Source: Candidatus Woesearchaeota archaeon (GTDB lineage: Archaea; Nanobdellota; Nanobdellia; SCGC-AAA011-G17; GW2011-AR17). From it: DNA of 64,000 nucleotides. Numbering within the stretch: position 1 is the first letter of the stretch; each line of letters starts with the position of its first letter. The translations under genes and the position numbers were made by a program. The stretch lies in the NCBI GenBank assembly GCA_964411565.1, contig CAYPLB010000005.1, positions 24,536 through 88,535 on the forward strand. Direction: 5' to 3'. Below are positions 1 through 37,540 of this stretch, piece by piece. Below the pieces are notes generated by a model. It was given only the letters and a program-made list of their open reading frames with translations, had not been told where the DNA came from and searched no databases.

Positions 1-885
1 ATCCTAAAGAAAAATACTTCTAAAGAGTTGCTAAAGAAAGATGAAGAAGGTAATTATTCTAATTTGGTAGCAGATAAATTAAATGACACACAATTAAAGA
101 TGCTAAAAGAATCTATCCATGGAACAGATTTTGATCCAGTAATGACGAGGGTTTCTTTAATGAATCTAATGATGCATGGGATTGATAACCCAGACATTGA
201 CCAAGTTAATTCTTTAACAAAATTATATGAACAAAGACCTATGTTCGATATAGTTCTAGCTAATCCACCTTTTAAAGGTAGTATAAATCAATCTGAGTTA
301 AACGACGACTTGACAATAAAGACAAAAAAAACAGAGTTGCTATACTTAGAGTTCATATACAATGTATTGAATGGTAATGGAAGATGTGCTGTAATTATTC
401 CTGATGGTGTATTATTCGGGAATTCAAAAGCTCATAGAGAAATTAGAAAGATTCTATTAGAAAAATGTAGAATTGATGCAATCATTTCAATGCCTTCAGG
501 TGTCTTTAAACCATATGCTGGTGTTTCTACAGGAATCATTATTTTTACGAAAGGAGAACCCACTAAAGAAGTTTGGTTCTATAACATGACTGAAGATGGA
601 TATACATTAGATGATAAAAGAAACAAAATAGATGGAAAAGGAGATATCCCTGACATCATAAAATCATTTAAAAATAGAAATAAAAGTAAACAAAATGATA
701 GAAAGAATAAACACTTTTTTATTCCAATCAAAGAAATCAAAGAAAGCAACTACGACTTAAGTATAAACAAGTATAAAGAGATAGTTTATGAAGAAGTAGA
801 ATATAAGCCAGCGAAAGAGATTAAAGCTAAAATAATTCGGCTTGAAGAAAATATTCTAAAAAGAATCAAAGAACTTGAATTTTAA
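1..885 (+). CDS. hsdM: Type I restriction-modification N6-adenine DNA methyltransferase subunit (HsdM), 5'-truncated by window edge
   Basis: The NPPF motif (VLANPPFKGS) of N6-adenine MTases and a C-terminal region typical of HsdM are present; the ORF runs from the window start. Confidence 0.75.
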   Translation: MLKKNTSKELLKKDEEGNYSNLVADKLNDTQLKMLKESIHGTDFDPVMTRVSLMNLMMHGIDNPDIDQVNSLTKLYEQRPMFDIVLANPPFKGSINQSELNDDLTIKTKKTELLYLEFIYNVLNGNGRCAVIIPDGVLFGNSKAHREIRKILLEKCRIDAIISMPSGVFKPYAGVSTGIIIFTKGEPTKEVWFYNMTEDGYTLDDKRNKIDGKGDIPDIIKSFKNRNKSKQNDRKNKHFFIPIKEIKESNYDLSINKYKEIVYEEVEYKPAKEIKAKIIRLEENILKRIKELEF

Positions 886-886
886 A

Positions 887-1306
887 TCACATTATTTTTT
901 TCTCTTTTTCAGTATAATAGAAATCTTTTCCTAAAACAACATGGTCCAAAACTTTTATATTTAATAACTCCCCACATTTGCTTAGAACCTTAATAGTTTG
1001 AATGTCCTCTTTACTAGGAGTAGGGTCACCGGAAGGATGATTGTGAGCGAGGATTATAGAATTTGTACTATTCATAATTGCTGTACGAAAAATTTCTCTC
1101 GGATGAATCACAGTTGAATTGAGAGTTCCTATATGTGCTATCTCTACTAGAGAGACTTTACCTTTAGTATCAAGATGGATTACAAAAAAATATTCCCTAT
1201 CAAGGCCAGAGGTTTTCTTACCCAGAAATTTAAAAACATCTTCAGAAGACTCAATATATACCTCTTCCTCTTCTCTAATAAATCTTATTTGAGACAAATC
1301 TTGCAT
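887..1306 (-). CDS. radC: RadC-like JAB/MPN domain protein
   Basis: The JAMM-like motif HNHPSGDPTPSKEDIQTIKVL is characteristic of the RadC/UPF0758 family. Confidence 0.75.
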   Translation of the reverse strand: MQDLSQIRFIREEEEVYIESSEDVFKFLGKKTSGLDREYFFVIHLDTKGKVSLVEIAHIGTLNSTVIHPREIFRTAIMNSTNSIILAHNHPSGDPTPSKEDIQTIKVLSKCGELLNIKVLDHVVLGKDFYYTEKEKKIM

Positions 1307-1616
1307 ATCTTAAGATTAGACAAATTAGTTTTAAAAAGCTTCACCAAAAAAATCGGGAAGATTTTCAGAAACACAAATCTATTTAAACTACCTCACCTTA
1401 TAACTCTATGTAAGATCTTGACCTGTTTAGGTTAAGGATTTCTAGCTCAGAAGGTCTCTCCGGCGGGGGCAGTCATTCTAACTTAGGTTCAAATTACTTT
1501 AAAATTTGAGCATCTGATTCAGGTTCAAAAAAGTAGGTTTGAATAATTCCCCTTACAAATTAAAAAATAGAGTGTAGGGGGAAACATTTAAATACTATTA
1601 ATACCTAAAGATTTCT

Positions 1617-2627
1617 ATGGTCTATATCCATGTTAAAAAAATTGGAAATAAGGAGTATTATACACTAAGGATGTCTGTTAGAAAGGACAATAAAGTAATA
1701 ACTAAAGATCTATGTAACCTTGGTTCTGACATCTCAAAGATAAGTATTGAAAGTTTAGAAAAGGAATACAAGAATGAAATAAGAAAATCTTACAAAACAA
1801 TAAAGAGGTTTTTAGAAAAGAATGTATATTTAGAAAAAGTAAAGAAATTAAAACCCAAGTCCTCCAAATATTTCAATAAAGAACAATTATTAAGCATATC
1901 AGCAATTAAATTACATTACAGTAAAAAGTTTTTAAAATTAGATAAATTAACAAAAAGAGACTTTTATGAAGGTTTTCTAATAAATTTTGCAGTTAATTCT
2001 ACATCAATAGAAGGGAACACAATTCCTTTGAAAGAAGCAAATAAGCTACTAACTGAAAATATTTTACCTAAAAATAGAACTATGAATGAAGTGTATGATT
2101 TATTAAATACAAAAACGGCCTTTAACTTTCTCCTAGAAAAAAAACCAAAACTGACTCTGGAATTAATAGAAGAAATTCATGGTATCTTACTTGATAAAAT
2201 TGATAGTAGAAAAGGCTTTAGAAACCATGATATTAGAATTTTTGGACAACCTTTTAAACCTAGTCCAGCAAGATATGTTAAAGCTGATTTAAAATTATTA
2301 TTAACTTGGTATGAAAAAAATGAAAAAAAGATTCACCCATTAGCATTAGCTACCTTTTTTCACCATAAGTTTGAGAAAATACACCCTTTTTCTGATGGCA
2401 ATGGTAGGACTGGAAGAATGTTAATGTGCTATATTCTTTTTTCATTAGAATATCCACCAATAGTTATCTCTAGAAGATTTAGAAAAAAATATTTAGATTC
2501 TATGAATAAAGCTGATAAGGCATTGGAAAAAAGTTTAACAAGTTTAGAAATAGATAATTATAAAAATTTGCTTAATTTTATTTATTTAGAATATAAGAAT
2601 TCTTATTGGGATCATTTTCTAGTCTGA
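1617..2627 (+). CDS. Fic family protein (paralog 1)
   Basis: Fic motif HPFSDGNGRTGR; N-terminus MVYIHVKK... is paralogous to the Fic gene at 4001. Confidence 0.8.
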   Translation: MVYIHVKKIGNKEYYTLRMSVRKDNKVITKDLCNLGSDISKISIESLEKEYKNEIRKSYKTIKRFLEKNVYLEKVKKLKPKSSKYFNKEQLLSISAIKLHYSKKFLKLDKLTKRDFYEGFLINFAVNSTSIEGNTIPLKEANKLLTENILPKNRTMNEVYDLLNTKTAFNFLLEKKPKLTLELIEEIHGILLDKIDSRKGFRNHDIRIFGQPFKPSPARYVKADLKLLLTWYEKNEKKIHPLALATFFHHKFEKIHPFSDGNGRTGRMLMCYILFSLEYPPIVISRRFRKKYLDSMNKADKALEKSLTSLEIDNYKNLLNFIYLEYKNSYWDHFLV

Positions 2628-2727
2628 GCAGAATAACTTAAATACCAATAAGACATATTATATTTAGCTTAATGGCATTACTCATATCTAAGTTTGAGCA
2701 ATGCATATGCAATGCATTCGGAGAGCC
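2606..2727. repeat. Intergenic repeat module R1, copy A (~121 bp; includes the last ~20 bp of the Fic CDS)
   Basis: Near-identical to 4988-5108 (2-3 mismatches); contains palindromes TGCATATGCA and AATGCATT. Confidence 0.8.
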
Positions 2728-2793
2728 TCAACAGAGACCTGCTACCTGGCGGGGGCATTATACTTCTTCTTTAGGTGACCACAAAATCTTAAA

Positions 2794-2839
2794 ATGTAGT
2801 CACCTCTAACCAAAAAGTTTAAATATGTAGTCACCTCTA
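2794..2839. promoter_or_regulatory. Two direct repeats ATGTAGTCACCTCTA (31 bp apart) plus inverted AGGTGAC/GTCACCT, just upstream of the Fic paralog 2 start
   Basis: Perfect 15-bp direct repeat at 2794-2808 and 2825-2839, ending 9 bp before the ATG at 2848. Confidence 0.3.
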
Positions 2840-2847
2840 TTATAACT

Positions 2848-3783
2848 ATGCATATTGAAAAAAGAAAAGAAAAAAATAAAATCAAATACTATTTATCTCA
2901 TTCTTATAGAGAAGGAAAAAAGGTTCATAAATTTAGGAAATATTTGGGTTTAGATTTAAAACAATCAAAACTAAAAGAAAGAAAAGAAATTGCTGAAAAA
3001 CTAATTCTAGAAGAAATTCATAAATATAACATCATAAAAGATCCTTTAGAGTTCGAACTTTCAGAAGAACAGATAAAAGAAATAGAAAAAATAGAAGCAA
3101 AAATACCTTTAAAAGTTAAACACCTTTCAAAAAAAGATTGGGAACTATTCTCTGAAATATTTACTTACAACACAAATGCTATTGAAGGTAGTCAATTGAA
3201 TCTTAAAGAAGTTAAAAATATTCTTGAAGAAGACAAATGGCCTGATAAATCTAAAGAAGACATTGCTGAAACTTATGGTGTCGAAGAGGCCTTAACTTAT
3301 ATTAGGGGAACTAAAGAACATATAAACCTAGATTTAATTAAGAAGATTCATAAAATTGTTTTTAAAAATTCAAAGAGTTTTGCTGGAAAACTAAGAAAAA
3401 AAGGGGAAGATGTTGTAGTTAAAGATAGTAAAGGAAATATTGTTCATGAGGGTGCACCTCAAGAAAGAATCAATCACTTATTAAAAGAATTAATTAATTG
3501 GTATAACAAAAATAAGAATAGATATCCTGCATTAGTTCTTGGAGCTGTTGTTCATAACCAATTTGAGAATATTCATCCATTTGGAGATGGGAATGGGAGA
3601 GTTGGAAGAATCTTATTAAATAATATTTTTTTAAAACAAGGATTACCACCAATTAATATTGATTTCAAAAATAAAGCTGAATATTATAGTTCTTTAAAGG
3701 CTTATGAAAATAAAGATCTGAAGCCTACTATTAAGCTTTTTATTAAGGAGTATAGTATTCTTAAGAAAAAATTGAAGAAGTAG
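2848..3783 (+). CDS. Fic family protein (paralog 2)
   Basis: Fic motif HPFGDGNGRVGR. Confidence 0.8.
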   Translation: MHIEKRKEKNKIKYYLSHSYREGKKVHKFRKYLGLDLKQSKLKERKEIAEKLILEEIHKYNIIKDPLEFELSEEQIKEIEKIEAKIPLKVKHLSKKDWELFSEIFTYNTNAIEGSQLNLKEVKNILEEDKWPDKSKEDIAETYGVEEALTYIRGTKEHINLDLIKKIHKIVFKNSKSFAGKLRKKGEDVVVKDSKGNIVHEGAPQERINHLLKELINWYNKNKNRYPALVLGAVVHNQFENIHPFGDGNGRVGRILLNNIFLKQGLPPINIDFKNKAEYYSSLKAYENKDLKPTIKLFIKEYSILKKKLKK

Positions 3784-3852
3784 AAAAGTACTTAAAGCTC
3801 GTCGACAACTACTATTTAAAGTTAGGGAATACCTAGATTTTCGGAGACTGTT
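3783..3852. repeat. Intergenic repeat module R2, copy A (~70 bp)
   Basis: Matches 5774-5843 with one mismatch. Confidence 0.8.
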
Positions 3853-3885
3853 CGTTGAAGGCTCACGACCGGCGGGGGCATTCTT

Positions 3886-3968
3886 ACCCTTTAATTATTG
3901 AGTTTATCTATTACAGGGTAAACTATTCTATTACCCTTCCTGAAAAGTTTTCAAAAAATAAAGGGTAA
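3886..3968. promoter_or_regulatory. Four alternating-orientation copies of the heptamer AGGGTAA/TTACCCT upstream of Fic paralog 3
   Basis: TTACCCT, AGGGTAA, TTACCCT, AGGGTAA lie within ~80 bp, ending ~35 bp before the ATG at 4001. Confidence 0.3.
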
Positions 3969-4000
3969 AATTTATAAATAGCAACTTCTTCTAAATATAT

Positions 4001-5008
4001 ATGGTATATATCTACAAAAAAGTCATCTCAGGCAAAGCCTACTACTACCTGAGAATGTCCCAAAAAACAAAAAGAAGAACTGTAACAAAAGATATTGCCT
4101 ATTTAGGAAATGATCCTTCAAAAATTGAAAAAAAATTAGATTCCCTACCTAAAATATATCAAAAAGATATTAGAAAATCTCATAGAAATATAAAAAAATT
4201 TATCACCTCAGAATATTTGGTTAAAAAAGTAAAAAAACAAAAGTTAAAAGAGATTAAACTTCTAAAAAAAGAATTACACGAAGAAGTTGAAGCAATTAGA
4301 TTACACTATAAAGATCATTTTCTTAAAGAAGATGAATTAAGTAAGGAAGAAATATACAAACACTTCTTAATCGATTTTGCTTACAATACAACTTCACTTG
4401 AAGGAAATACTATCACATTAAAAGAAACTGAAAAATTATTACAAGAAGAACTCACACCAAAGAATAGAACTTTGAGAGAAATATATGACTTACAAAATAC
4501 AGAGGCAGTTTTCTTTGAATTATTAAGTAAGAAAGAACCCATAAATGATAAATTAATAATTTGGATGCATGACGAATTAGTAAAAAATATCGATAAAAGA
4601 ATAGGATATAGGTTAGGAGATATAAGAGTTTTTAGATCGAGATTTAATGCTTCACCAGGGAAATATGTTAAGGTTGATATGAAAATACTGTTAGATTGGT
4701 ACAAGAAAAATAAGAAAAAATTACATCCAATTGTTTTAGCTAGTGTGTTTCATCAAAAGTTCGAAAAAATTCATCCTTTTTATGATGGCAATGGAAGAAC
4801 TGGAAGAATATTAATGAATTATATGTTAATGTTAGAAGGATATCCACCTCTTGCAATAAGTAAAAAAAACAGAACTGAATATTTAGATTGTTTAGCTGAA
4901 GCGAATGATGTTAATATTGATGATATAGATGAAAGAAAGTATAAAAAATTAGTTGAGTTTGTTTCTAAAGAAATGATAAGTAAATATTGGAATCATTTTC
5001 TAGTCTGA
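4001..5008 (+). CDS. Fic family protein (paralog 3)
   Basis: Fic motif HPFYDGNGRTGR; N-terminus and C-terminus (WNHFLV) match paralog 1. Confidence 0.8.
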   Translation: MVYIYKKVISGKAYYYLRMSQKTKRRTVTKDIAYLGNDPSKIEKKLDSLPKIYQKDIRKSHRNIKKFITSEYLVKKVKKQKLKEIKLLKKELHEEVEAIRLHYKDHFLKEDELSKEEIYKHFLIDFAYNTTSLEGNTITLKETEKLLQEELTPKNRTLREIYDLQNTEAVFFELLSKKEPINDKLIIWMHDELVKNIDKRIGYRLGDIRVFRSRFNASPGKYVKVDMKILLDWYKKNKKKLHPIVLASVFHQKFEKIHPFYDGNGRTGRILMNYMLMLEGYPPLAISKKNRTEYLDCLAEANDVNIDDIDERKYKKLVEFVSKEMISKYWNHFLV

Positions 5009-5108
5009 GCAGAATAACTTAAATACCAATAAGACATATTATATTTAGCTTAATGGCATTACTCATATCTAAATTTGAGCAATGCATATGCAATGCTTTC
5101 GGAGAGCC
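4988..5108. repeat. Intergenic repeat module R1, copy B
   Basis: Near-identical to 2606-2727. Confidence 0.8.
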
Positions 5109-5345
5109 TTTACCGACCAGCGGGGGCGTCCTTATTCTGATACGACTCTCCACCCATATTTTAGGTCAAAAAAAGAGGGGCATCATGTCTCCGATACGAC
5201 TCTCCATTTTAGAATTCTACAAAAAATAAGATAGAAAGGCTTAAAAATAACCTTGTTAAACTTTGAAGTAAATAAGAATTTATAAAGAAAAAAATTCTTT
5301 TAGTTTTATGAGGATTTCAATAGAAGAAAAGGAGAGTAATTTTAT

Positions 5346-5714
5346 ATGTGGATAGAAGAACAAGAACATGGGCAGACCCATTATGTAAAGGAAGTAGATA
5401 TTAATGGGATGGTAGAATTAAGAGTTGTAAGTCCAGATGGAAGAAGAGTAAGAACAATAGAGTTTACCTTGGAAGAAGATGTAAGAAGTACGAAAAAACC
5501 TTATGACTTACAGTACTTTTTTGATGATAGAGGGATGCCAAGTTCTTTTAATCATTGTGGTGCTGCAGTATTTGGTACAAACTGGCCACCAAGTAATCTA
5601 TTAAAGAGAGACACTGAAGGAAATTTAAGAAGGGAATATGTTTTGTTAGGCTCAGAATATCCTTCTATAAAAGTTTCTTTAGATCGTTGTGTTGAAATAA
5701 TGGAAAGATTTTAG
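5346..5714 (+). CDS. Hypothetical protein (GC content higher than surroundings)
   Basis: 122-aa ORF with no recognisable motif; composition differs from neighbouring genes. Confidence 0.5.
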   Translation: MWIEEQEHGQTHYVKEVDINGMVELRVVSPDGRRVRTIEFTLEEDVRSTKKPYDLQYFFDDRGMPSSFNHCGAAVFGTNWPPSNLLKRDTEGNLRREYVLLGSEYPSIKVSLDRCVEIMERF

Positions 5715-5773
5715 TTGTTTTTATTATTCTTTTTAGAAAAATAATCAAAAATTTTTTTTTATTCTAAAAAACA

Positions 5774-5843
5774 GAAAAGTACTTAAAGTTCGTCGACAAC
5801 TACTATTTAAAGTTAGGGAATACCTAGATTTTCGGAGACTGTT
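5774..5843. repeat. Intergenic repeat module R2, copy B
   Basis: Matches 3783-3852. Confidence 0.8.
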
Positions 5844-5845
5844 AG

Positions 5846-6061
5846 TTAAAAATATTTTCCAAAAAAAGGCAGTTTTCTTAGATAACTCTCATCAACTTTA
5901 GACTCTTTTTTAGATGGAAAAGCTTCTGATCTTAAAACCACTTGACCACTTGGAGTTAAATAATAAGTTCTAGCAAAATTTCTTGCTGATTCTTGAGTTT
6001 TTGTCCACATTGTATCTAAGTCCTTTTGTGTTATTTCTAGAAATTTATCTTCAATACTCAT
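5846..6061 (-). CDS. Hypothetical small protein
   Basis: 71-aa ORF with plausible coding composition; no recognised motif. Confidence 0.4.
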   Translation of the reverse strand: MSIEDKFLEITQKDLDTMWTKTQESARNFARTYYLTPSGQVVLRSEAFPSKKESKVDESYLRKLPFFGKYF

Positions 6062-6168
6062 AAATTAATAGAAGATTTATAATCTTTAAATATTTTTCTC
6101 TACTATTGAAAGTATTCTATTGACCAGAAAACTTAAATAATAAGCCAAAATTCTTTCAAATATAGAAA

Positions 6169-6846
6169 ATGACAAAAAACTTACCAGAACAGATAACTGA
6201 AATGTTTTCAAATATAGAAGGAAAAGTTACAAAAAATATTTCTTTAGATGAGTTAGAAAGAAGACTTCGACCTCAAAATCCAGTAGCAGGAGGAGAAACT
6301 TGGTCAGATTATTCTTCTGAAGGATTTCTTGCTCCAAATCAAAGACTTTTAGATGTTTTGGAATCAGACTATTTGGCTTTACAAACATTGGAAAGGACTT
6401 ATCCAGAAATGGCAGAATTAGCAGCAATAGTTTTAAAAGAAAAAACTAGATTTGGTCCAGCACAATTGAATCTTTTACAAAGATTTCTTAGATTTTTTGA
6501 GGATGTAAGTGAAAGAAAAAGGATTGATGATAAAGAATATTCTATATTGAATATTGGTTCAGGAGGGTTTCAAACTTGTCCTTGGGGATGTGAAGGTAAG
6601 GATAATTATGAGTATAAAACAACTGGGTGTGGAACTACTTATGTTATGCTTGAACAAGGTGAATTGCCAGATGATGAAGATTTTAGAATAGAAGACCTTA
6701 CAAGAACTCTTGCAGAATCATCATTCTTGGTTGTAACAGATTTAACACCACATTTAATTGCATCACATTACTTTTTTGAAGGTGAAACTCCTTACAGAAC
6801 AGATCCAGAAAGATTAGTTAGAGTGTTTGATGTTAAAGGAAGATAA
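6169..6846 (+). CDS. Hypothetical protein with a Cys-rich segment (CPWGCEGKD...TGCGTTY)
   Basis: 225-aa ORF with higher GC; no recognised family. Confidence 0.55.
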   Translation: MTKNLPEQITEMFSNIEGKVTKNISLDELERRLRPQNPVAGGETWSDYSSEGFLAPNQRLLDVLESDYLALQTLERTYPEMAELAAIVLKEKTRFGPAQLNLLQRFLRFFEDVSERKRIDDKEYSILNIGSGGFQTCPWGCEGKDNYEYKTTGCGTTYVMLEQGELPDDEDFRIEDLTRTLAESSFLVVTDLTPHLIASHYFFEGETPYRTDPERLVRVFDVKGR

Positions 6847-6941
6847 GTTGCCTGATTGGATTGAAATTCTGCAGAAGACTATGGAAGAGGAAGAAATTGT
6901 TGTTTTTGAGGACAAATTGTAGTTTTTTCTCAATTTTTTGT

Positions 6942-7393
6942 TTAATTAAAATACTTACTTGGAACAACTATAGCCGACTCTCCATTTGAAAATGTTCTTG
7001 CAGTCCTGAACTCTGAAAAGTTTGTATGGAAGTAATCTGAAAGCATATTCATTGGACAAAATTCAACTAGACTAATATAAGATTTTTTCATCTGTCTATA
7101 GTTCCCATGTACTAAAAAATGTATTGTTAAGTGAGGTGAGCAATAAACACCAACATTACCAAATCTTAAATCTAAAGGTGGAGAATTCCTAATTTTTGAG
7201 AAGGAAAACATTTTAAAAGGAAACTATCCACATAATCTCCATCTTCCCAATCATATTTCATATGACAAGACATATAAAGATCACTTTGAGTTTCTACAAA
7301 TTCTGGAGTAAAAACATGTTTTTGACAAACATTTTCTGAAGCACAACTTTCAACAAAACTTAATCCTTAAGCTAAAATAATATTTTTTTTCAT
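6942..7393 (-). pseudogene. Decayed gene for a putative secreted protein (in-frame stop plus frameshift)
   Basis: The minus strand reads MKKNIILA, then TAA, then continues in two other frames (GLSFVESCASENVCQKH... then MFSFSKIRNSPP...). Coding-like composition runs through a ~450-bp region that has no long ORF. Confidence 0.35.
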
Positions 7394-7489
7394 AAAACCT
7401 AAAATCTTTATGAATTATATAAACTTTGTTATATTTTATTGATATCAATACAATAATCCTTAAATATTAACTAATTTTACTTTCTTTTT

Positions 7490-8236
7490 ATGAGATCAGA
7501 AATTTTAACATTAATTTTAGCTTCTTGTGTTGATGGAGAATTTGACACAAAAGTAAATCAAGAATCAGAAGCACCAATAGAAAAAAAATGTAGAGACCAT
7601 TACCGACCTGAGGATAAAGAAAGAGTTTTTTGGACTAATCGTTGCAGAGAAGATGGAATTTATCGCTTAGAAAGTTGGGGTCATACTATTCAAGAAGGAA
7701 TGGCTCTTGCTCGAACAAAAAACATTGATGGAAAATTAATATTTGCAGATTGTTATGGACATCATTTAGGAGATGAAGTGCATGATTTTTATGAAGCAGG
7801 AGGAACAAACGAATTTTTATCAAGTTTAGTTAAAATTGAAAAAGCTGAAGGAGGAGCATTCTTTGTCCCTTTATGTCATCTAGGTTTTTTAGGAGAATAT
7901 CAAGCAGCAGGTGGGACTATTGAAGAGATGAAAGCTTATGCTACTTTGACAGACACAAAAGGAAATTCTATTTTCTCAGGTCATAAAGCAGTTCGTTTTG
8001 AATTAGTAGGAGGTTCATTAGAAAAAGCACAAGAATTATCTAATTTAAGAAATTCTGAAGGAGATCCTGCATTCCAGATGGATTTATTATTTCCTGTACA
8101 TTATAGTGGTACACGAATTGGTAGTGAGATCTTTGAGTATCAGAAAAAAGGCGGGACTGTTGATTGTGCTAAGGAAGCAGTAACTGGTGATAGAATTTAT
8201 CTATCACAAGTTAATAATGCTTGTATAAAAAAATAA
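7490..8236 (+). CDS. Putative lipoprotein/secreted hypothetical protein
   Basis: N-terminal MRSEILTLILASC is lipobox-like; higher GC. Confidence 0.6.
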   Translation: MRSEILTLILASCVDGEFDTKVNQESEAPIEKKCRDHYRPEDKERVFWTNRCREDGIYRLESWGHTIQEGMALARTKNIDGKLIFADCYGHHLGDEVHDFYEAGGTNEFLSSLVKIEKAEGGAFFVPLCHLGFLGEYQAAGGTIEEMKAYATLTDTKGNSIFSGHKAVRFELVGGSLEKAQELSNLRNSEGDPAFQMDLLFPVHYSGTRIGSEIFEYQKKGGTVDCAKEAVTGDRIYLSQVNNACIKK

Positions 8237-8288
8237 TTTCTTTTGAAATATAGAAATTTATTTATAGTAGAGGATAAATATTTGAATT

Positions 8289-8861
8289 ATGAAATCTATA
8301 AATACACTAACTTTAGTCACATTATTGGGTTGTGGTTCAAATAGGTCTATTCCAGAACCAAAAAAGGGAAGCTTTAGAGAATATGGAATTTTTAAAACCA
8401 GTGACTCTCCTGTAACTGATCCTCTTTCATTAGCAGATTTTTTATTCACTAGTCCAAGTCAAAGAATTTGTGGTTGTCCTTATGGAGATTTTACACCTGA
8501 TAATGTAATTCCTAATGAATATTATGATATAGGACAAGTTCCTTTTGAAGTACTAATAGATGATTCTGATTATGTTGCAAATGGTGTTGGACAGAATATG
8601 TATCATGCATTTTCTGGAGAACCAACTGAAGATGGAAGAAAATCTTTTTTTAGAGTTGGAATAGTTTTCACAGGAGCTGAGTTTAGTGAAGATTTTAATG
8701 TACTAAGAGAAAATTGGCCTAATAAAGAATTTGAATTGAATAGACATAAAATGAAAGGCTGGAAATTTAACCAGAGCCAGGTTTATGAAATTGATTTAAA
8801 AAATGGTGAAGCACCAATAGATGTTTATGTTTGGAACTGTTGTCATCCAAATCAATTATAA
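8289..8861 (+). CDS. Putative lipoprotein, hypothetical
   Basis: N-terminal MKSINTLTLVTLLGCGSN carries a lipobox. Confidence 0.6.
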   Translation: MKSINTLTLVTLLGCGSNRSIPEPKKGSFREYGIFKTSDSPVTDPLSLADFLFTSPSQRICGCPYGDFTPDNVIPNEYYDIGQVPFEVLIDDSDYVANGVGQNMYHAFSGEPTEDGRKSFFRVGIVFTGAEFSEDFNVLRENWPNKEFELNRHKMKGWKFNQSQVYEIDLKNGEAPIDVYVWNCCHPNQL

Positions 8862-8883
8862 TTTCATGAAATTTTATAGAAGA

Positions 8884-9291
8884 CTAAAGTTTAGTTTCTA
8901 AATCTGTAGTTTTCCCTGACCGAAATCTTTCATAACCCTCACTCATTGTATTTGTAATTACTGGAATAGTTAAGACCAAAGGATTGTCAACAACAAAATC
9001 AAGAATTTGGGAATTAAAAACTAGTAAGCTAGCTCCTGTAAACAAGGAACCAATTCCCATAACAGGAGATTTTGTCCAATAGTTTGCAAAACTATCTAAT
9101 CCTAAATAATTTCTTCCTTCTTCTTGTGCTTTAGCATACTCTTCCTTTGTTCCTCTTACAAAAGTAGGAACAACTAAACAAGCAACAGGCAAGGCTAGTG
9201 CCCCTTCAAAAAAATCCTTAACAACTCCACCAGTTCCTCTAATAGTACCATACAAAGAACTAGAATTTAAATTATAATTTTGATTTTCCAT
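8884..9291 (-). CDS. Hypothetical protein
   Basis: 135-aa ORF with a hydrophobic segment. Confidence 0.45.
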   Translation of the reverse strand: MENQNYNLNSSSLYGTIRGTGGVVKDFFEGALALPVACLVVPTFVRGTKEEYAKAQEEGRNYLGLDSFANYWTKSPVMGIGSLFTGASLLVFNSQILDFVVDNPLVLTIPVITNTMSEGYERFRSGKTTDLETKL

Positions 9292-9909: not shown

Positions 9910-11952
9910 ATGTGTGGAATAATTGGTATATTTGGAGAGAATTCAAAGATTGAAGTAGAAAAATCTCTAGAATTATTAAAAAATCGAGGAAGAGACAATC
10001 AAGAGATTTATGAAGGAGAAAATTTTACTTTAGGTCACACATTACATTCTGTTGTTGGTTTTACAAAACAACCAATTATTGGAAAAGGAATTTTAACTGC
10101 AAACTGTGAGATTTATAATTGGAAAGAACTTGGAAAAGGAGATAGTGATTCAAAAATTTTATTCAATTTATTAGAAAATAATGATATTGAAGAAGTACTA
10201 AAAAAATTAGATGGTGTTTTTGCTTTCGCATATTATAAAGATAATAAAATCTACTTAGCAAGAGATATAATTGGAATCAAACCTCTTTGGTATACTCACA
10301 CTGACACTTTTGCTTTCGCATCAGAAAAAAAAGTTTTAGAAAATTTAGGCTACTTAAACATTCAAGAATTAAACCCTAGAGAAATATTAATTTATGACAA
10401 AGAAAAAGATAAAATAACTATAAAGAAAAGAAACTTTTTCACAATAAAACCAGAGATTCAAGATTCTAAAGAAATTATTTTAGAGAATTTAGAAAAATAT
10501 TTTATTAATGCTATCAAAAAAAGAATTCCAAGCAAAAAATTTGGAGTTTTATTCTCTGGAGGAATTGACAGCACTTTATTATCTTATGTAATCAAAAATT
10601 TGGGCAATAATTTCACATGTTACCTTTCAGTTTTTGACCATCCAGATTTAAAAGAACCTGAAGATTTAACTTATGCTCAAGAGATTGCAAAGGAATTAAA
10701 CTTTAATTTAGAAATTGTAAAAATAAGATTAGATGAAGTAGAACCATTACTAAAAACTATAGTCCCTTTAATTGAAGATTCAAATGTTGTTAAAGTTGGA
10801 GTAGCATTAACCTTCTTTGCAGCTTGTAAAAAAGCTAAGGAAGATGGATGTAAAGTTATTTTCTCAGGTTTAGGTTCAGAAGAAATATTTGCAGGTTATG
10901 AACGACACAAAAATTCTAGAAATGCTAACGAGGAATGTCTCTCAGGTTTACTAAAAATGTATGAAAGAGACACTTACAGGGACGATGTAATTACAATGTT
11001 TAATGAATTAGAATTAAGACTACCTTTCTTAGACAAAAAATTAGTAAATTTTGCATTGAGAATTCCAGAGAAATACAAAATTAATGAAGAACAATCAAAA
11101 ATAATTTTAAGAGACTTAGCAATCAAATTAAAACTTCCAGATAAATTCTCACAAAGAAAGAAAAAAGCAGCACAATATGGTTCAAACTTCCACAAAGCTC
11201 TAAAAAAATTATCAAAGAAAGATAATCATAAACTAATCTCTTCATACTTAAAACAATTTTATCCTCAAAAGAACATGAAGTTAGCAGCTTTAGTTAGTTC
11301 TGGCAAAGATGGCATTTATGCAATGTACACAATGATGAAACAAAATTATGAAATATCTTGCATGCTTACAATAAAAAGTAAAAATTTAGACTCATACATG
11401 TACCATACTCCAGCAGTTGATATTGTAAAACTTCAATCAGAATCAATAGGAATACCTTTAATGATTCAAGAAACTGAAGGAAAAAAAGAAGAAGAGTTAG
11501 AGGATTTAAAAAAAATCCTAAAAGAAGCAAAAGAGAAATATCAAATTGAAGGAATTATCACAGGAGCTTTATTTTCAAATTACCAAAGAGAGAGAATAGA
11601 AAAAGTTGCAGACTCATTATCATTAAAAATATTTTCACCTTTATGGCATATGAACCAAGAAACTGAGGTAAGAGAAATCATAAATAAAGATTTCAAATTT
11701 ATTATAACAAAAGTTGCTGCTGATGGTTTAGATAAATCTTGGTTAAACAAAGTAATTACTGAGGAAGATTTAAAGAAATTAGTAAATCTAAATGAAAAAA
11801 TGGGATTTAATATCGCTGGTGAGGGAGGAGAATTTGAAACACTAATGATTGACGGTCCAATTTTCAATAAAAAAATTCAAATTGAAGATTTTGAAATAGA
11901 AGAAGATGGTATTGTTGGTACATTAAAAATAAAAAAAGCTAAATTAATCTAA
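9910..11952 (+). CDS. Fusion protein: an asparagine synthetase (AsnB)-like glutamine amidotransferase joined to a C-terminal diphthine-ammonia ligase (Dph6/MJ0570-like) domain
   Basis: N-terminal MCGIIG (Ntn class-II GATase nucleophile Cys2) and PP-loop SGGIDST. From about residue 458: MKLAALVSSGKDG...DSYMYHT...GEGGEFET, matching the conserved Dph6/DUF71 ATP-pyrophosphatase motifs. A single continuous 680-aa ORF. Confidence 0.75.
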   Translation: MCGIIGIFGENSKIEVEKSLELLKNRGRDNQEIYEGENFTLGHTLHSVVGFTKQPIIGKGILTANCEIYNWKELGKGDSDSKILFNLLENNDIEEVLKKLDGVFAFAYYKDNKIYLARDIIGIKPLWYTHTDTFAFASEKKVLENLGYLNIQELNPREILIYDKEKDKITIKKRNFFTIKPEIQDSKEIILENLEKYFINAIKKRIPSKKFGVLFSGGIDSTLLSYVIKNLGNNFTCYLSVFDHPDLKEPEDLTYAQEIAKELNFNLEIVKIRLDEVEPLLKTIVPLIEDSNVVKVGVALTFFAACKKAKEDGCKVIFSGLGSEEIFAGYERHKNSRNANEECLSGLLKMYERDTYRDDVITMFNELELRLPFLDKKLVNFALRIPEKYKINEEQSKIILRDLAIKLKLPDKFSQRKKKAAQYGSNFHKALKKLSKKDNHKLISSYLKQFYPQKNMKLAALVSSGKDGIYAMYTMMKQNYEISCMLTIKSKNLDSYMYHTPAVDIVKLQSESIGIPLMIQETEGKKEEELEDLKKILKEAKEKYQIEGIITGALFSNYQRERIEKVADSLSLKIFSPLWHMNQETEVREIINKDFKFIITKVAADGLDKSWLNKVITEEDLKKLVNLNEKMGFNIAGEGGEFETLMIDGPIFNKKIQIEDFEIEEDGIVGTLKIKKAKLI

Positions 11953-37390: not shown

Positions 37391-37540
37391 TGGGACCGCA
37401 GGGATTCGAACCCTGGACACCTAGATATCTGAGAACAGTTCAAATAAACAAATTCATTTGATCTTCAGTTTCACTATGCTATTTTAAGCAAACTAGTGCT
37501 CTCCCAGACTGAGCTACGGTTTAATGCTCTTTTAAGACCC
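37391..37540 (-). tRNA. Intron-containing tRNA (anticodon unresolved); a ~60-nt intron in the anticodon region and a probable second small intron after acceptor nt 3
   Basis: Minus strand reads ACCG-TA-GCTC-AGTCTGGGA-GAGC ... GTGTC-CAGGG-TTCGAAT-CCCTG-CGGTCCC-A. The 5' acceptor strand continues only as ACCG. The GGG needed to pair with the 3' CCC lies 17 nt upstream (GGG|tcttaaaagagcattaa|ACCG). Confidence 0.55.

What the first reader, a model, noticed from the sequence alone, without database searches (positions are those of the whole stretch)
1..5850. Cassette-like array: hsdM, RadC and three tandem Fic paralogs separated by a mosaic of repeated intergenic modules and a recurring CCGGCGGGGGCA motif
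Three Fic-motif genes (HPF[SGY]DGNGR[TV]GR) sit back to back after a type I hsdM and a RadC-like JAB gene. The intergenic spacers are built from reused modules. R1 (~121 bp, two copies) begins inside the last ~7 codons of Fic1 and Fic3 (WDHFLV/WNHFLV) and runs downstream. R2 (~70 bp, two copies) follows Fic2 and the unrelated gene at 5346-5714. A GC-rich 12-mer (CCGGCGGGGGCA or close variants) occurs at about 1459, 2748, 3869 and 5110; it is very conspicuous in ~30% GC DNA. The R1 boundary inside the Fic coding region looks like a recombination breakpoint. This could mean the Fic C-termini or the downstream partners are exchanged as cassettes. Separately, Fic genes embedded in type I restriction-modification loci are a known arrangement. 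The repeated-module architecture around an archaeal Fic array is not something I can place in a described system.
Basis: partly seen in the sequence, partly recalled or inferred. Interest (0 to 1): 0.65.

Follow-up and report, generated by a model that had tools for sequence, protein, structure and literature searches.

The report
Fic gene cassettes joined by att-like junctions
In a tiny marine DPANN archaeon, three old Fic enzyme genes and one orphan gene sit head to tail, joined by a reused non-coding junction sequence that resembles the attachment site of a tRNA-targeting integrated element, so the array was probably built one gene-sized cassette at a time.

Summary
R1 (132 nt, 95.5%), R2 (85 nt, 93%) and the GC motif (three exact copies plus one variant; 0.05 expected) lie where described and nowhere else in about 72 kb.

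The host is a DPANN (Nanoarchaeota-type) archaeon. Fic1, Fic2 and Fic3 are ancient paralogs (50% and 32% aa). Each has its own large ortholog family, its own palindromic operator and its own leaderless-type promoter.

Every junction is a composite: a variable arm (R1 or R2), box A (TTCGGAGA), 23 nt, and an invariant G-box (GGCGGGGGCA) followed by TTCT. The left end of the array carries only the G-box half. The right end carries only the arm half.

The junctions are better conserved than the genes. R1 is 98% identical against 50% aa. R2 is 87-91% identical in another organism whose Fic is 54% aa identical and inverted.

In a related contig (L007), a Fic1 ortholog lies in an integrase-bearing element inserted at tRNA-Ser. 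An R2-like arm there abuts the repeated tRNA 3'-end core.

Best reading: tandem accretion of integrase-less, att-bounded mini-cassettes. The junctions are not integron attC sites, not tRNA genes, not structured RNAs and not coding. No recombinase lies nearby, and no excision or empty site was seen.

The parts
1..885 (+). 3' part of the type I R-M methylase gene hsdM. It is the left neighbour of the array, not part of it.
   Evidence: Pfam N6_Mtase 5.5e-44. In same-population contigs hsdR, a 204-aa ORF, hsdS and the full 494-aa hsdM lie upstream.
887..1306 (-). RadC-like JAB domain gene, divergent from Fic1. It marks the left boundary of the array.
   Evidence: Pfam RadC 8.1e-38; NCBIfam RadC 5e-39.
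1450..1482 (+). Left-end half junction. It has the G-box half only (GAAGGTCTCTCCGGCGGGGGCAGTCATTCTAAC) with no arm and no box A. I read it as attL-like.
   Evidence: Homology to the other junctions begins at GAAGG. The G-box is at 1460-1471.
1547..1594 (+). Fic1-specific palindrome TTCCCCTTACA-N15-TGTAGGGGGAA followed by the TATA box TTTAAATA. The start codon lies 22 nt after the TATA box.
   Evidence: The same palindrome is found upstream of TATA, and again after the stop codon, in Fic1 orthologs L007, L010 and L011. Coordinates.
1617..2627 (+). Fic1 (336 aa). A class II, FICD-like Fic enzyme with an extra N-terminal domain of about 105 aa.
   Evidence: Pfam Fic 3.6e-21. FICD 6i7g at 1.6e-19 over residues 122-300. 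The motif STSIEG and HPFSDGNGRTGR are read from the sequence. Orthologs at 60-79% identity, nearly all 336 aa, in DPANN MAGs.
2613..2767 (+). Junction 1, the R1a module. Arm 2613-2716 (begins at the His codon of Fic1), box A 2717-2724, 23-nt spacer, G-box 2745-2757, TTCT 2764-2767.
   Evidence: The tail resembles the L007 att site 2 region (z 4.2, 1 of 500 shuffles).
2773..2836 (+). Fic2-specific operator and promoter: AGGTGACCAC-N13-GTAGTCACCT, TATA box at 2818-2825, and a second GTAGTCACCT.
   Evidence: 83-86% identical over 76-78 nt upstream of Fic2 orthologs L062, L063 and L065. Coordinates.
2848..3783 (+). Fic2 (311 aa), a class II Fic enzyme from a very strongly conserved DPANN family.
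   Evidence: Pfam Fic 3.7e-19. All 119 other listed clusters are 74-80% identical; 3102 hits at E<=1e-30.
3782..3884 (+). Junction 2, the R2a module. Arm 3782-3839, box A 3840-3847, 23-nt spacer, G-box 3869-3880, TTCT 3881-3884.
   Evidence: 87% identical to L038. Homologous to L007 10592-10691, which abuts a tRNA-Ser 3'-end core (score 56; shuffles 18.4 +/- 3.2; 0 of 2000 shuffles and 0 of 2840 background windows reach it).
3884..3980 (+). Fic3-specific palindromes (TTACCCT / AGGGTAA, two pairs) and the TATA box TTTATAAATA.
   Evidence: Related palindromes TACCCACTACA...TGTAGAGGGTAA flank the Fic3 orthologs L012, L014 and L015.
4001..5008 (+). Fic3 (335 aa), a class II Fic enzyme, 50% aa identical to Fic1.
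   Evidence: Pfam Fic 1e-19. Alignment. Own ortholog family at 52-70% identity.
4994..5206 (+). Junction 3, the R1b module. Arm 4994-5097, box A 5098-5105, spacer shortened by 10 nt, G-box variant CCAGCGGGGGCG at 5117-5128, TTCT at 5135-5138. Then an imperfect 30-nt duplication (5123-5152 and 5177-5206), each copy starting with GGGGC.
   Evidence: (family D15).
5346..5714 (+). orf122, an orphan ORF with no family match. It occupies the same slot (between an R1-type junction and an R2 arm) as Fic2.
   Evidence: No hit in Pfam, NCBIfam, PADLOC or PHROGs.
5773..5847 (+). Right-end half junction, R2b. It has the arm and box A (5831-5838) only. Homology stops at TGTTAGTT, and there is no G-box. I read it as attR-like. 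It abuts the 3' end of the converging 71-aa ORF at 5846-6061.
   Evidence: (91% identical to L038 R2).

Best explanation
The region is a tandem array of four gene-sized cassettes in a DPANN archaeon. Each cassette has the layout G-box half, own promoter, one gene (Fic1, Fic2, Fic3 or orf122), then an arm.

The junctions between cassettes are composite attachment-site-like sequences. Each has an element-side arm (type R1 or R2) ending in box A, a variable 23-nt spacer, and an invariant core (the G-box). I infer that the array arose by serial conservative site-specific recombination, that is, tandem accretion. A tyrosine integrase supplied in trans would have acted on small integrase-less derivatives of a DPANN family of tRNA-targeting integrative elements. 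Later gene conversion or recombination between junctions would keep the arms nearly identical.

The Fic genes are cargo. Each is a self-contained, probably operator-controlled, class II (FICD-like) Fic gene.

Shown directly:
- the anatomy of the junctions;
- the half junctions at the two ends of the array;
- that the junctions are more conserved than the cargo;
- the homology to a genuine att junction in L007.

Inferred:
- that recombination built the array;
- which enzyme did it;
- whether the array is still active.
For: 1. Topology. Full junctions (arm + box A + N23 + G-box) lie between cassettes. The left end has only the G-box half, with homology starting at GAAGG (1450). The right end has only the arm half, with homology ending at TGTTAGTT (5847). 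This is the attL / attP-like / attR pattern expected from serial integration.

2. Junctions are better conserved than cargo.
- The R1 copies are 97-100% identical, against about 50% aa for Fic1/Fic3.
- Both genes end in a His-containing tail that is absent from 30 orthologs.
- R2 flanks two unrelated genes.

3. An independent genome, found by DNA pattern and not by protein. L038 carries an R1-type tail with G-box and an R2 with G-box (87-91% identity) on either side of a Fic that is only 54% aa identical and is inverted. So three different cargoes occupy the same slot.

4. L015. A Fic3 ortholog (64%) is followed by CCGGCGGGGGCATTCT. On the larger contig carrying the same protein, two integrase genes lie upstream.

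5. L007.
- It has a tRNA-Ser gene followed by three direct copies of its 3'-end core, CAGCCTCGGCG. These bound two integrase-bearing elements, one of which carries a Fic1 ortholog (79%).
- The 100 nt to the left of the second core are homologous to R2 plus the first half of the G-box (score 56; shuffles 18.4 +/- 3.2; best of 2840 background windows 41).
- The R1 tail also matches that site (z 4.2).

6. Sequence invariance. GGCGGGGGCA is invariant in 6 of 7 strong instances across three organisms, while the 10-12 nt before it vary. That points to sequence-specific recognition.

7. Alternatives tested and found negative: no consensus RNA structure, no Rfam or tRNA hit, no conserved ORF, no attC features.
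Against: - No integrase or other recombinase homolog lies in the 64-kb window or in 8.4 kb upstream (Pfam).
- The leftmost site is not a tRNA gene. No tRNA ending in ...CCGGCGGGGGCA was found, so the primary target of this core is unknown.
- No empty site, excised circle or alternative cassette order was seen. All contigs from this population are co-linear.
- Only three other organisms (L007, L015, L038) inform the model.
- A degenerate GGGGCA...TTCT motif lies 123-136 nt upstream of Fic2 orthologs in L064 and L065 with no sign of integration. This fits a regulatory role equally well.
- Near-identity of the arms could come from gene conversion alone.
Confidence: 0.5

Rival explanations
1. The junctions are cis-regulatory DNA. 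They would act as a terminator or insulator plus an upstream element that isolates each potentially toxic, self-regulated Fic gene from read-through. Their near-identity would come from gene conversion between neighbouring paralogous flanks, with no cassette mobility.
For: - The G-box lies 41-217 nt upstream of a co-oriented gene in 8 of 9 cases, including the weak copies upstream of Fic2 in L064 and L065.
- A pyrimidine-rich stretch precedes the G-rich box and T-rich sequence follows it. One copy was flagged as terminator-like.
- Each Fic gene has its own TATA box and operator.
Against: - Local hairpins are no more stable than shuffled sequence, and there is no consensus structure.
- Fic2 orthologs at 75-80% identity lack R2, whereas a 54% relative has it at 87-91% identity and on the other side of the gene.
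- R2 is homologous to a sequence abutting an att core in L007.
- The distance from the G-box to the promoter is not fixed.
Confidence: 0.2
2. R1 and R2 are small non-autonomous mobile repeats (MITE-like or REP-like) that themselves insert next to Fic genes. The genes would be bystanders.
For: - The modules are short (105-155 nt), non-coding, nearly identical within the genome and 83-91% identical between organisms.
- They share a common tail.
- R1b has an 8-bp inverted repeat at its two ends, CAGAATAA...TTATTCTG (read).
Against: - There are five copies within 4.5 kb and none in the other 66 kb or so.
- No consistent terminal inverted repeats or target-site duplications were found.
- The same two module types lie in the same order around a Fic2-like gene in two organisms.
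- The half modules at the ends of the array are unexplained by this model.
- The metagenome scan found only one further locus, although the collection evidently does not hold this organism's own contigs.
Confidence: 0.12
3. Each junction encodes a small regulatory RNA, for example an antitoxin-like RNA that acts on Fic expression.
For: TATA-like sequences lie about 22-27 nt upstream of box A in R2, L015 and the left module of L038 (read). The tail is conserved.
Against: - The consensus fold is -1.6 kcal/mol with no covariation.
- Single-sequence z-scores run from -1.4 to +1.1.
- There is no Rfam match above chance.
- The most conserved part of R2 lies upstream of the putative transcription start.
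- R1 has no convincing promoter.
Confidence: 0.06
4. The array is a canonical integron cassette array without an integrase (a CALIN), and R1 and R2 are attC sites. Integrons of this kind are already known from Nanoarchaeota.
For: - Co-oriented single-gene cassettes are each followed by a recombination-site-like repeat, and the repeats are more alike within a genome than the cargo is.
- Integrons and CALINs have been reported in Nanoarchaeota, with toxin-antitoxin and R-M genes as cargo (PMC9668308).
Against: - There are no RYYYAAC...GTTRRRY pairs in 1-6300.
- Single-strand DNA folds of either strand are not significant (z -0.9 to +0.7).
- Each cassette carries its own promoter.
- The junction is homologous to a tRNA-type att region.
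Confidence: 0.02

Closest known systems
Tandem accretion of integrative elements and their integrase-less derivatives at one att site. Bacterial examples are ICE/CIME arrays such as ICESt1 with its CIMEs. Archaeal examples are tRNA-targeted integrated elements.
   Same: - Direct repeats of a short core bound each unit.
- Hybrid, attP-like sites lie between units and half sites at the ends.
- Units lacking an integrase would depend on one supplied in trans.
- L007 shows the autonomous version at tRNA-Ser, with a Fic1 ortholog as cargo.
   Different: - The units here are single genes of 0.8-1.2 kb, four in a row.
- There is no tRNA at the left end and no integrase within about 72 kb.
- The core (CCGGCGGGGGCA) has not been matched to any tRNA.
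Integron cassette arrays and CALINs, including archaeal ones (PMC9668308)
   Same: A co-oriented array of single-gene cassettes separated by recombination-site-like repeats. [quoted passage not shown] Toxin-type and defence-type genes are typical cargo.
   Different: - attC core sites and the attC hairpin are absent.
- Each cassette has its own promoter rather than relying on a common Pc promoter.
- The junction is related to a tRNA-type att region.
Class II Fic AMP-transferases (FICD/HYPE type) and the SoFic / PDC-S04 defence candidates
   Same: - Fic core with HPFxDGNGRxxR.
- An intramolecular inhibitory motif, (S/T)xxxE(G/N).
- Best solved match is FICD at 1.6e-19.
- PADLOC hits to PDC-S04 and SoFic, 1e-30 to 5e-40.
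   Different: - There is no C-terminal wHTH domain of the SoFic type and no TPR domain of the FICD type.
- The families are restricted to DPANN and unusually well conserved.
Fic/Doc genes embedded in type I R-M operons
   Same: A Fic array lies next to a complete hsdR-hsdS-hsdM system.
   Different: The Fic genes lie outside the hsd operon, beyond a RadC gene on the opposite strand. None of the 10 orthologous loci examined is R-M linked.

Membership tests
Integron attC site / CALIN | Inverse core sites: R'' (RYYYAAC) and R' (GTTRRRY), 50-140 nt apart | tested here: not met
   No such pair on either strand in 1-6300; 6 pairs in the whole 64 kb, all elsewhere.
Integron attC site / CALIN | Imperfect palindrome that folds as a single-stranded hairpin | tested here: not met
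   DNA folds of both strands of R1+G-box and R2+G-box give z -0.89 to +0.73 against shuffles.
Integron attC site / CALIN | An IntI integrase with attI next to the array (not required for a CALIN) | tested here: not met
   No Phage_integrase hit among the genes flanking the array. No tblastn hit to the L007 integrases.
tRNA-targeting integrative element with a tyrosine recombinase, in tandem accretion | Direct repeats of a short core sequence bounding each unit, all in one orientation | tested here: met
   G-box at 1460, 2745, 3869 and 5117 (variant), all on the + strand; 0.05 expected. The rightmost junction lacks the core, so the last unit is bounded only by the arm.
tRNA-targeting integrative element with a tyrosine recombinase, in tandem accretion | Element-side arm sequences next to the core, homologous to those of a bona fide integrated element | tested here: met
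   R2+G-box against L007 10592-10691 next to the second tRNA-Ser core: score 56, with 0 of 2000 shuffles and 0 of 2840 background windows reaching it. R1 tail: z 4.2.
tRNA-targeting integrative element with a tyrosine recombinase, in tandem accretion | Core identical to the 3' end of a tRNA gene that forms one end of the array | tested here: not met
   No tRNA in 1-6200 by ARAGORN or Rfam, even at E<=10. The three tRNAs of the window end differently. The rest of the genome could not be searched. The feature is met in L007.
tRNA-targeting integrative element with a tyrosine recombinase, in tandem accretion | An integrase gene within or next to the array | tested here: not met
   None in the 64-kb window or in 8.4 kb upstream. 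Integrases are present in L007 and on the larger contig carrying the L015 Fic3 ortholog.
tRNA-targeting integrative element with a tyrosine recombinase, in tandem accretion | Evidence of excision or integration: an empty site, a circular junction or variable cassette order | not testable with these tools
   All contigs from the same population are co-linear.
MITE / REP-like dispersed repeat | Many dispersed copies with terminal inverted repeats and target-site duplications | tested here: not met
   No copy outside 1450-5850 in about 72 kb. No consistent terminal inverted repeats (and reading). Genome-wide copy number could not be tested.
Structured non-coding RNA | A conserved secondary structure supported by covariation, or a match to a known family | tested here: not met
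   Consensus energy -1.6 kcal/mol with 0 covarying pairs over 7 instances. No Rfam match better than E 0.3.
Class II Fic AMP-transferase | Fic motif HPFx(D/E)GN(G/K)R | tested here: met
   HPFSDGNGRTGR, HPFGDGNGRVGR and HPFYDGNGRTGR. Pfam PF02661.
Class II Fic AMP-transferase | Inhibitory helix motif (S/T)xxxE(G/N) on the N-terminal side of the Fic core in the same polypeptide | tested here: met
   STSIEG, TNAIEG and TTSLEG about 120 residues before the Fic motif. They align to the FICD inhibitory helix region. Catalytic activity was not tested.
Fic gene embedded in a type I R-M operon | Fic gene inside the hsd operon, co-transcribed with hsdM/hsdS, with the linkage recurring in relatives | tested here: not met
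   RadC on the opposite strand separates hsdM from Fic1. None of the 10 other Fic loci is next to hsd genes.

The most novel reading that the evidence does not exclude
DPANN archaea may possess a cassette platform that is not an integron. Single genes, each with its own promoter, would be captured, stacked and exchanged between genomes through a tRNA-derived att core (the G-box) and portable arms, by an integrase acting in trans. That would be a functional analogue of integrons built from a different recombination system, with the conserved Fic families as preferred cargo.
Probability: 0.22. Interest if true: 0.8.

Novelty: new variant of a known kind. Interest (0 to 1): 0.5.

Why it matters
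DPANN archaea have tiny genomes and depend on host cells, and how they gain and shuffle genes is poorly understood. If these junctions are active attachment sites, they mark a route by which single genes move between DPANN genomes without carrying a recombinase of their own. Their 40-nt signature could then be used to find more such cassettes.

The work also defines three strongly conserved DPANN-specific Fic families. Each has its own palindromic operator, and Fic2 is 74-80% identical across every listed ortholog cluster (more than 100). These are more likely core regulators of the cell, or of its interaction with the host, than disposable toxins.

If the junctions prove to be only regulatory spacers, the finding is a tidy but ordinary case of concerted evolution.

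Tried and rejected
- **tRNA fragment at the GC motif.** ARAGORN and Rfam find nothing in 1-6200. A viral-collection scan for a T-loop followed by the G-box gave one chance hit that is not a tRNA. The idea survives only as an inference from L007.
- **Small ORFs.** The plus-strand ORF in R1 changes frame between copies. On the minus strand, the 'MPPP' mini-ORF differs between R2a and L038 by about nine changes, all non-synonymous (read). Rejected.
- **Fic pseudogene remnants in the spacers.** tblastn found nothing beyond chance level.
- **Structured RNA, terminator hairpin or H/ACA RNA.** No support.
- **Integron attC.** Rejected.
- **DGR-like template/variable repeat with an IMH element.** R1 is almost entirely non-coding, the three mismatches show no adenine bias, and no reverse-transcriptase domain appeared among the ORFs that were scanned or had precomputed Pfam hits; the other window ORFs were not scanned. 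Rejected.
- **Inversion between the R1 and R2 tails.** Part of the spacer is inverted between them, but L038 shows that only the palindrome-flanked Fic unit is inverted.
- **Searches that gave nothing useful.** The genome-contig scan with Fic1 returned one irrelevant Bacteroidales hit. Viral-collection scans for the G-box, the R2 core, the bipartite tail and Fic2 relatives returned only chance hits or distant bacterial phage Fic genes. In the metagenome scan, 29 of 30 hits were chance matches in GC-rich DNA, and this organism's own contigs did not appear, so the scan does not test dispersal in the rest of this genome.
- **hsdS variation between contigs.** An artefact of scaffold Ns.

Full report
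**1. What is there**

The first 6 kb of the window hold the following genes:
- the 3' part of a type I methylase gene, hsdM (1-885);
- a RadC/JAB gene on the minus strand (887-1306);
- three Fic genes on the plus strand: Fic1 (1617-2627), Fic2 (2848-3783) and Fic3 (4001-5008);
- an orphan 122-aa ORF (5346-5714);
- a converging 71-aa ORF (5846-6061).

Contigs from several marine metagenomes carry the same sequence at 99.8-100% identity and in the same order. They show hsdR, a 204-aa ORF, hsdS and a full-length hsdM immediately upstream.

The organism is a DPANN archaeon. The evidence is 29% G+C, an intron-containing tRNA, and best protein relatives from MAGs that their sources label Nanoarchaeota, Woesearchaeota or Pacearchaeota.

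**2.

- R1: 2604-2735 matches 4985-5116 at 95.5% over 132 nt.
- R2: 3775-3859 matches 5766-5850 at 93% over 85 nt.
- GGCGGGGGCA occurs three times where 0.05 is expected. A variant lies at 5119.
- None of these elements occurs in the other 58 kb of the window or in 8.4 kb further upstream.

A sliding comparison of the Fic1 and Fic3 loci shows 45-83% identity across the coding sequences. Identity jumps to 97-100% across R1 and falls back to about 40% after 2730. So the breakpoint is sharp.

Both genes end in YW(D/N)HFLV. In 15 Fic1-family and 15 Fic3-family orthologs the position of that His holds I, L, T, N, S, K, Y or A, and never H. The last five codons together with R1 are therefore one recently shared tract. 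This is direct evidence for recombination or gene conversion reaching into the coding sequence.

**3. The genes are old and self-contained**

Fic1 and Fic3 are 50% identical at the protein level. Fic2 is 32% identical to Fic1.

Each has its own large ortholog family of nearly constant length in DPANN genomes:
- Fic1: 60-79% identity;
- Fic3: 52-70% identity;
- Fic2: 74-80% identity in all 119 other clusters listed.

All three carry the Fic motif and the class II inhibitory motif (S/T)xxxE(G/N). The closest solved relative is FICD, at 1.6e-19. PADLOC matches the Fic core to the SoFic and PDC-S04 models.

The extra N-terminal 105 or so residues fold confidently (pLDDT 90) into three strands and two helices, but have no clear structural relative.

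Each family has its own palindrome directly upstream of a TATA box that lies about 22 nt before the start codon:
- Fic1: TTCCCCTTACA-N15-TGTAGGGGGAA;
- Fic2: GGTGACCAC-N13-TGTAGTCACCT;
- Fic3: TTACCCT / AGGGTAA.

These palindromes are conserved in the orthologs. Often the palindrome, or one of its half-sites, recurs right after or over the stop codon.

The orthologs are single genes in unrelated neighbourhoods, and none is next to an R-M system. The tandem arrangement and the R-M neighbour are therefore specific to this genome.

**4. Anatomy of the spacers**

R1 and R2 share a tail: box A (TTCGGAGA), exactly 23 nt, then GGCGGGGGCA followed by TTCT. Each full junction is thus a variable arm (R1 or R2) plus box A, a spacer and the G-box.

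The spacer before Fic1 has only the G-box half; homology to the other junctions begins at GAAGG (1450). The last junction (R2b) has only the arm and box A; homology stops at TGTTAGTT (5847), just where the converging ORF ends.

The array therefore reads:

half site | Fic1-R1 | Fic2-R2 | Fic3-R1 | orf122-R2 half site

**5. What the junctions are not**

- They are not tRNA genes or known RNAs.
- They have no consensus secondary structure (-1.6 kcal/mol, no covariation, 7 instances).
- Their single-sequence RNA and DNA folds are no better than shuffles.
- They hold no conserved ORF. The only candidate differs between genomes entirely by non-synonymous changes.
- They lack the core sites and the hairpin of integron attC sites. 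Integrons and CALINs are known from Nanoarchaeota (PMC9668308).

**6. Related genomes**

*L038.* A metagenome scan for the bipartite tail gave 29 chance hits in GC-rich DNA and one real hit, L038. Read on its minus strand, that 2-kb contig contains, in order:
- a different arm ending in CGGAGAGCCTCAACAGA... plus a G-box;
- a Fic2-like gene flanked on both sides by GGTGACCAC / GTGGTCACC palindromes;
- an R2 with G-box;
- an unrelated ORF.

R2 there is 87-91% identical to the window copies. The Fic protein is only 54% identical and is inverted relative to the junctions. Much closer Fic2 orthologs (75-80%) have no R2.

Three different cargoes (Fic2, orf122 and the inverted L038 Fic) therefore sit in the same slot between an R1-type tail with G-box and an R2 arm. 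The junctions are decoupled from the phylogeny of the cargo.

*L015.* This contig, with a Fic3 ortholog at 64%, has CCGGCGGGGGCATTCT 205 nt after the Fic stop codon. On the larger contig carrying the same protein, two integrase genes lie a few kb upstream.

*Weak G-box copies.* A weaker form of the motif, GGGGCA followed within 8 nt by TTCT, occurs eight independent times in about 176 kb of DPANN sequence. Seven of these lie within 211 nt of a Fic gene, including 123 and 136 nt upstream of the Fic2 orthologs in L064 and L065.

**7. The key comparison: L007**

L007 carries a Fic1 ortholog at 79% identity. It contains a tRNA-Ser gene (3377-3476). The 3'-end core of that tRNA, CAGCCTCGGCG, is repeated in the same orientation at 10681 and 13199.

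The first interval holds an integrase gene, the Fic1 ortholog and several small genes. The second interval begins with another integrase gene. This is a textbook tandem integration at a tRNA gene.

The 100 nt to the left of the second core align with R2 from its first bases through to the CGGCGG of the G-box. The local score is 56. Shuffles give 18.4 +/- 3.2, with none of 2000 reaching 56. The best of 2840 background windows scores 41.

The R1 tail (CTCAACAGAGAC...CCTGGCGG) also matches that site (CTAAACAGAGTC...CCTCGGCGG), with z 4.2.

So the arms correspond to the right-end arm of an integrated element, and the G-box occupies the position of the att core.

**8. Interpretation**

The most economical reading is tandem accretion. 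Small integrase-less derivatives of this element family, each reduced to one gene with its own promoter, were stacked by site-specific recombination at the core. This left attP-like composite junctions between units and half junctions at the two ends. Recombination or gene conversion between junctions explains the near-identity of the two R1 copies and of the two R2 copies. It also explains the shared five-codon tail of Fic1 and Fic3.

The inversion of the Fic unit in L038 is readily explained by recombination between the palindromes (or half-sites) that lie at the promoter and at the stop codon of these Fic genes.

What is missing:
- a recombinase; none lies within about 72 kb;
- a tRNA matching the G-box;
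- any direct sign of excision or of an empty site.

I put this explanation at about 0.5. The main rival, at about 0.2, is that the G-box and arms are regulatory or insulating DNA kept alike by gene conversion. MITE-like repeats, small RNA genes and canonical attC sites are less likely.

**9. Verdict**

Its cassette and recombinase-site reading is partly supported. Its R-M link is probably incidental.

The region is best filed as a new variant of a known kind: an att-bounded tandem array, here with gene-sized units that lack an integrase. Interest is moderate (0.5). It would be higher if the junctions prove to be an active capture system that is not an integron.

Noticed in passing
window 1547-1594, 2773-2836, 3884-3980; L007 about 7950-8000 and 9036-9075; L010, L011, L014, L062-L065: Each DPANN Fic family has its own palindrome directly upstream of the TATA box. 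In orthologs the palindrome, or one half-site, often recurs immediately after or over the stop codon. The sequence co-varies with the Fic family, which suggests a family-specific operator, possibly bound by the Fic protein itself.
   Followed up: partly
[not shown]
   Followed up: partly
L038 773-1711 and flanks: The Fic2-like gene is inverted relative to the flanking junction modules when compared with the window. Palindromes lie at both ends of the inverted segment, and a GTAG remnant lies at the left edge of R2.
   Followed up: partly
window 2848-3783: The Fic2 family is unusually well conserved for a supposed toxin or defence gene. All 119 other listed clusters are 74-80% identical across many DPANN MAGs. 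This hints at a core cellular role.
   Followed up: no
window 5123-5152 and 5177-5206: An imperfect 30-nt direct duplication lies in the spacer before orf122. Each copy starts with GGGGC and ends with GATACGACTCTCCA. The CTCTCC is the complement of box A (GGAGAG).
   Followed up: no
window 1483-1493 and 1519-1529; L038 about 2000-2012: A TTAGGTTCAAA-like motif occurs twice just after the first G-box, and once, after TTCTGAC, at the left end of L038. There it follows a box A-like TTTTCGAG with no G-box between them.
   Followed up: no
L004 1679-1778; L005 contig end (window 2636-2640): Two independent assemblies break or carry a 100-N scaffold gap exactly inside R1. This is expected for a repeat. 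It could also hide population variants in cassette order.
   Followed up: partly
window 37395-37520 (- strand): A tRNA gene with a long intron is found by Rfam (31.9 bits) but not by ARAGORN. This is consistent with an archaeal host.
   Followed up: no
L007 9615-9875 and L002 11-253: A small 86-aa protein inside the L007 integrated element is 30% identical (6e-10) to the 90-aa ORF at the far left of the contig that carries the R-M system upstream of the window. The R-M/RadC/Fic region may itself be part of a larger island.
   Followed up: no
window 6169-9291: Several ORFs to the right of the array (225, 248, 190 and 135 aa) have no match in Pfam. Those also scanned against NCBIfam, PADLOC or PHROGs have no match there either.
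   Followed up: no
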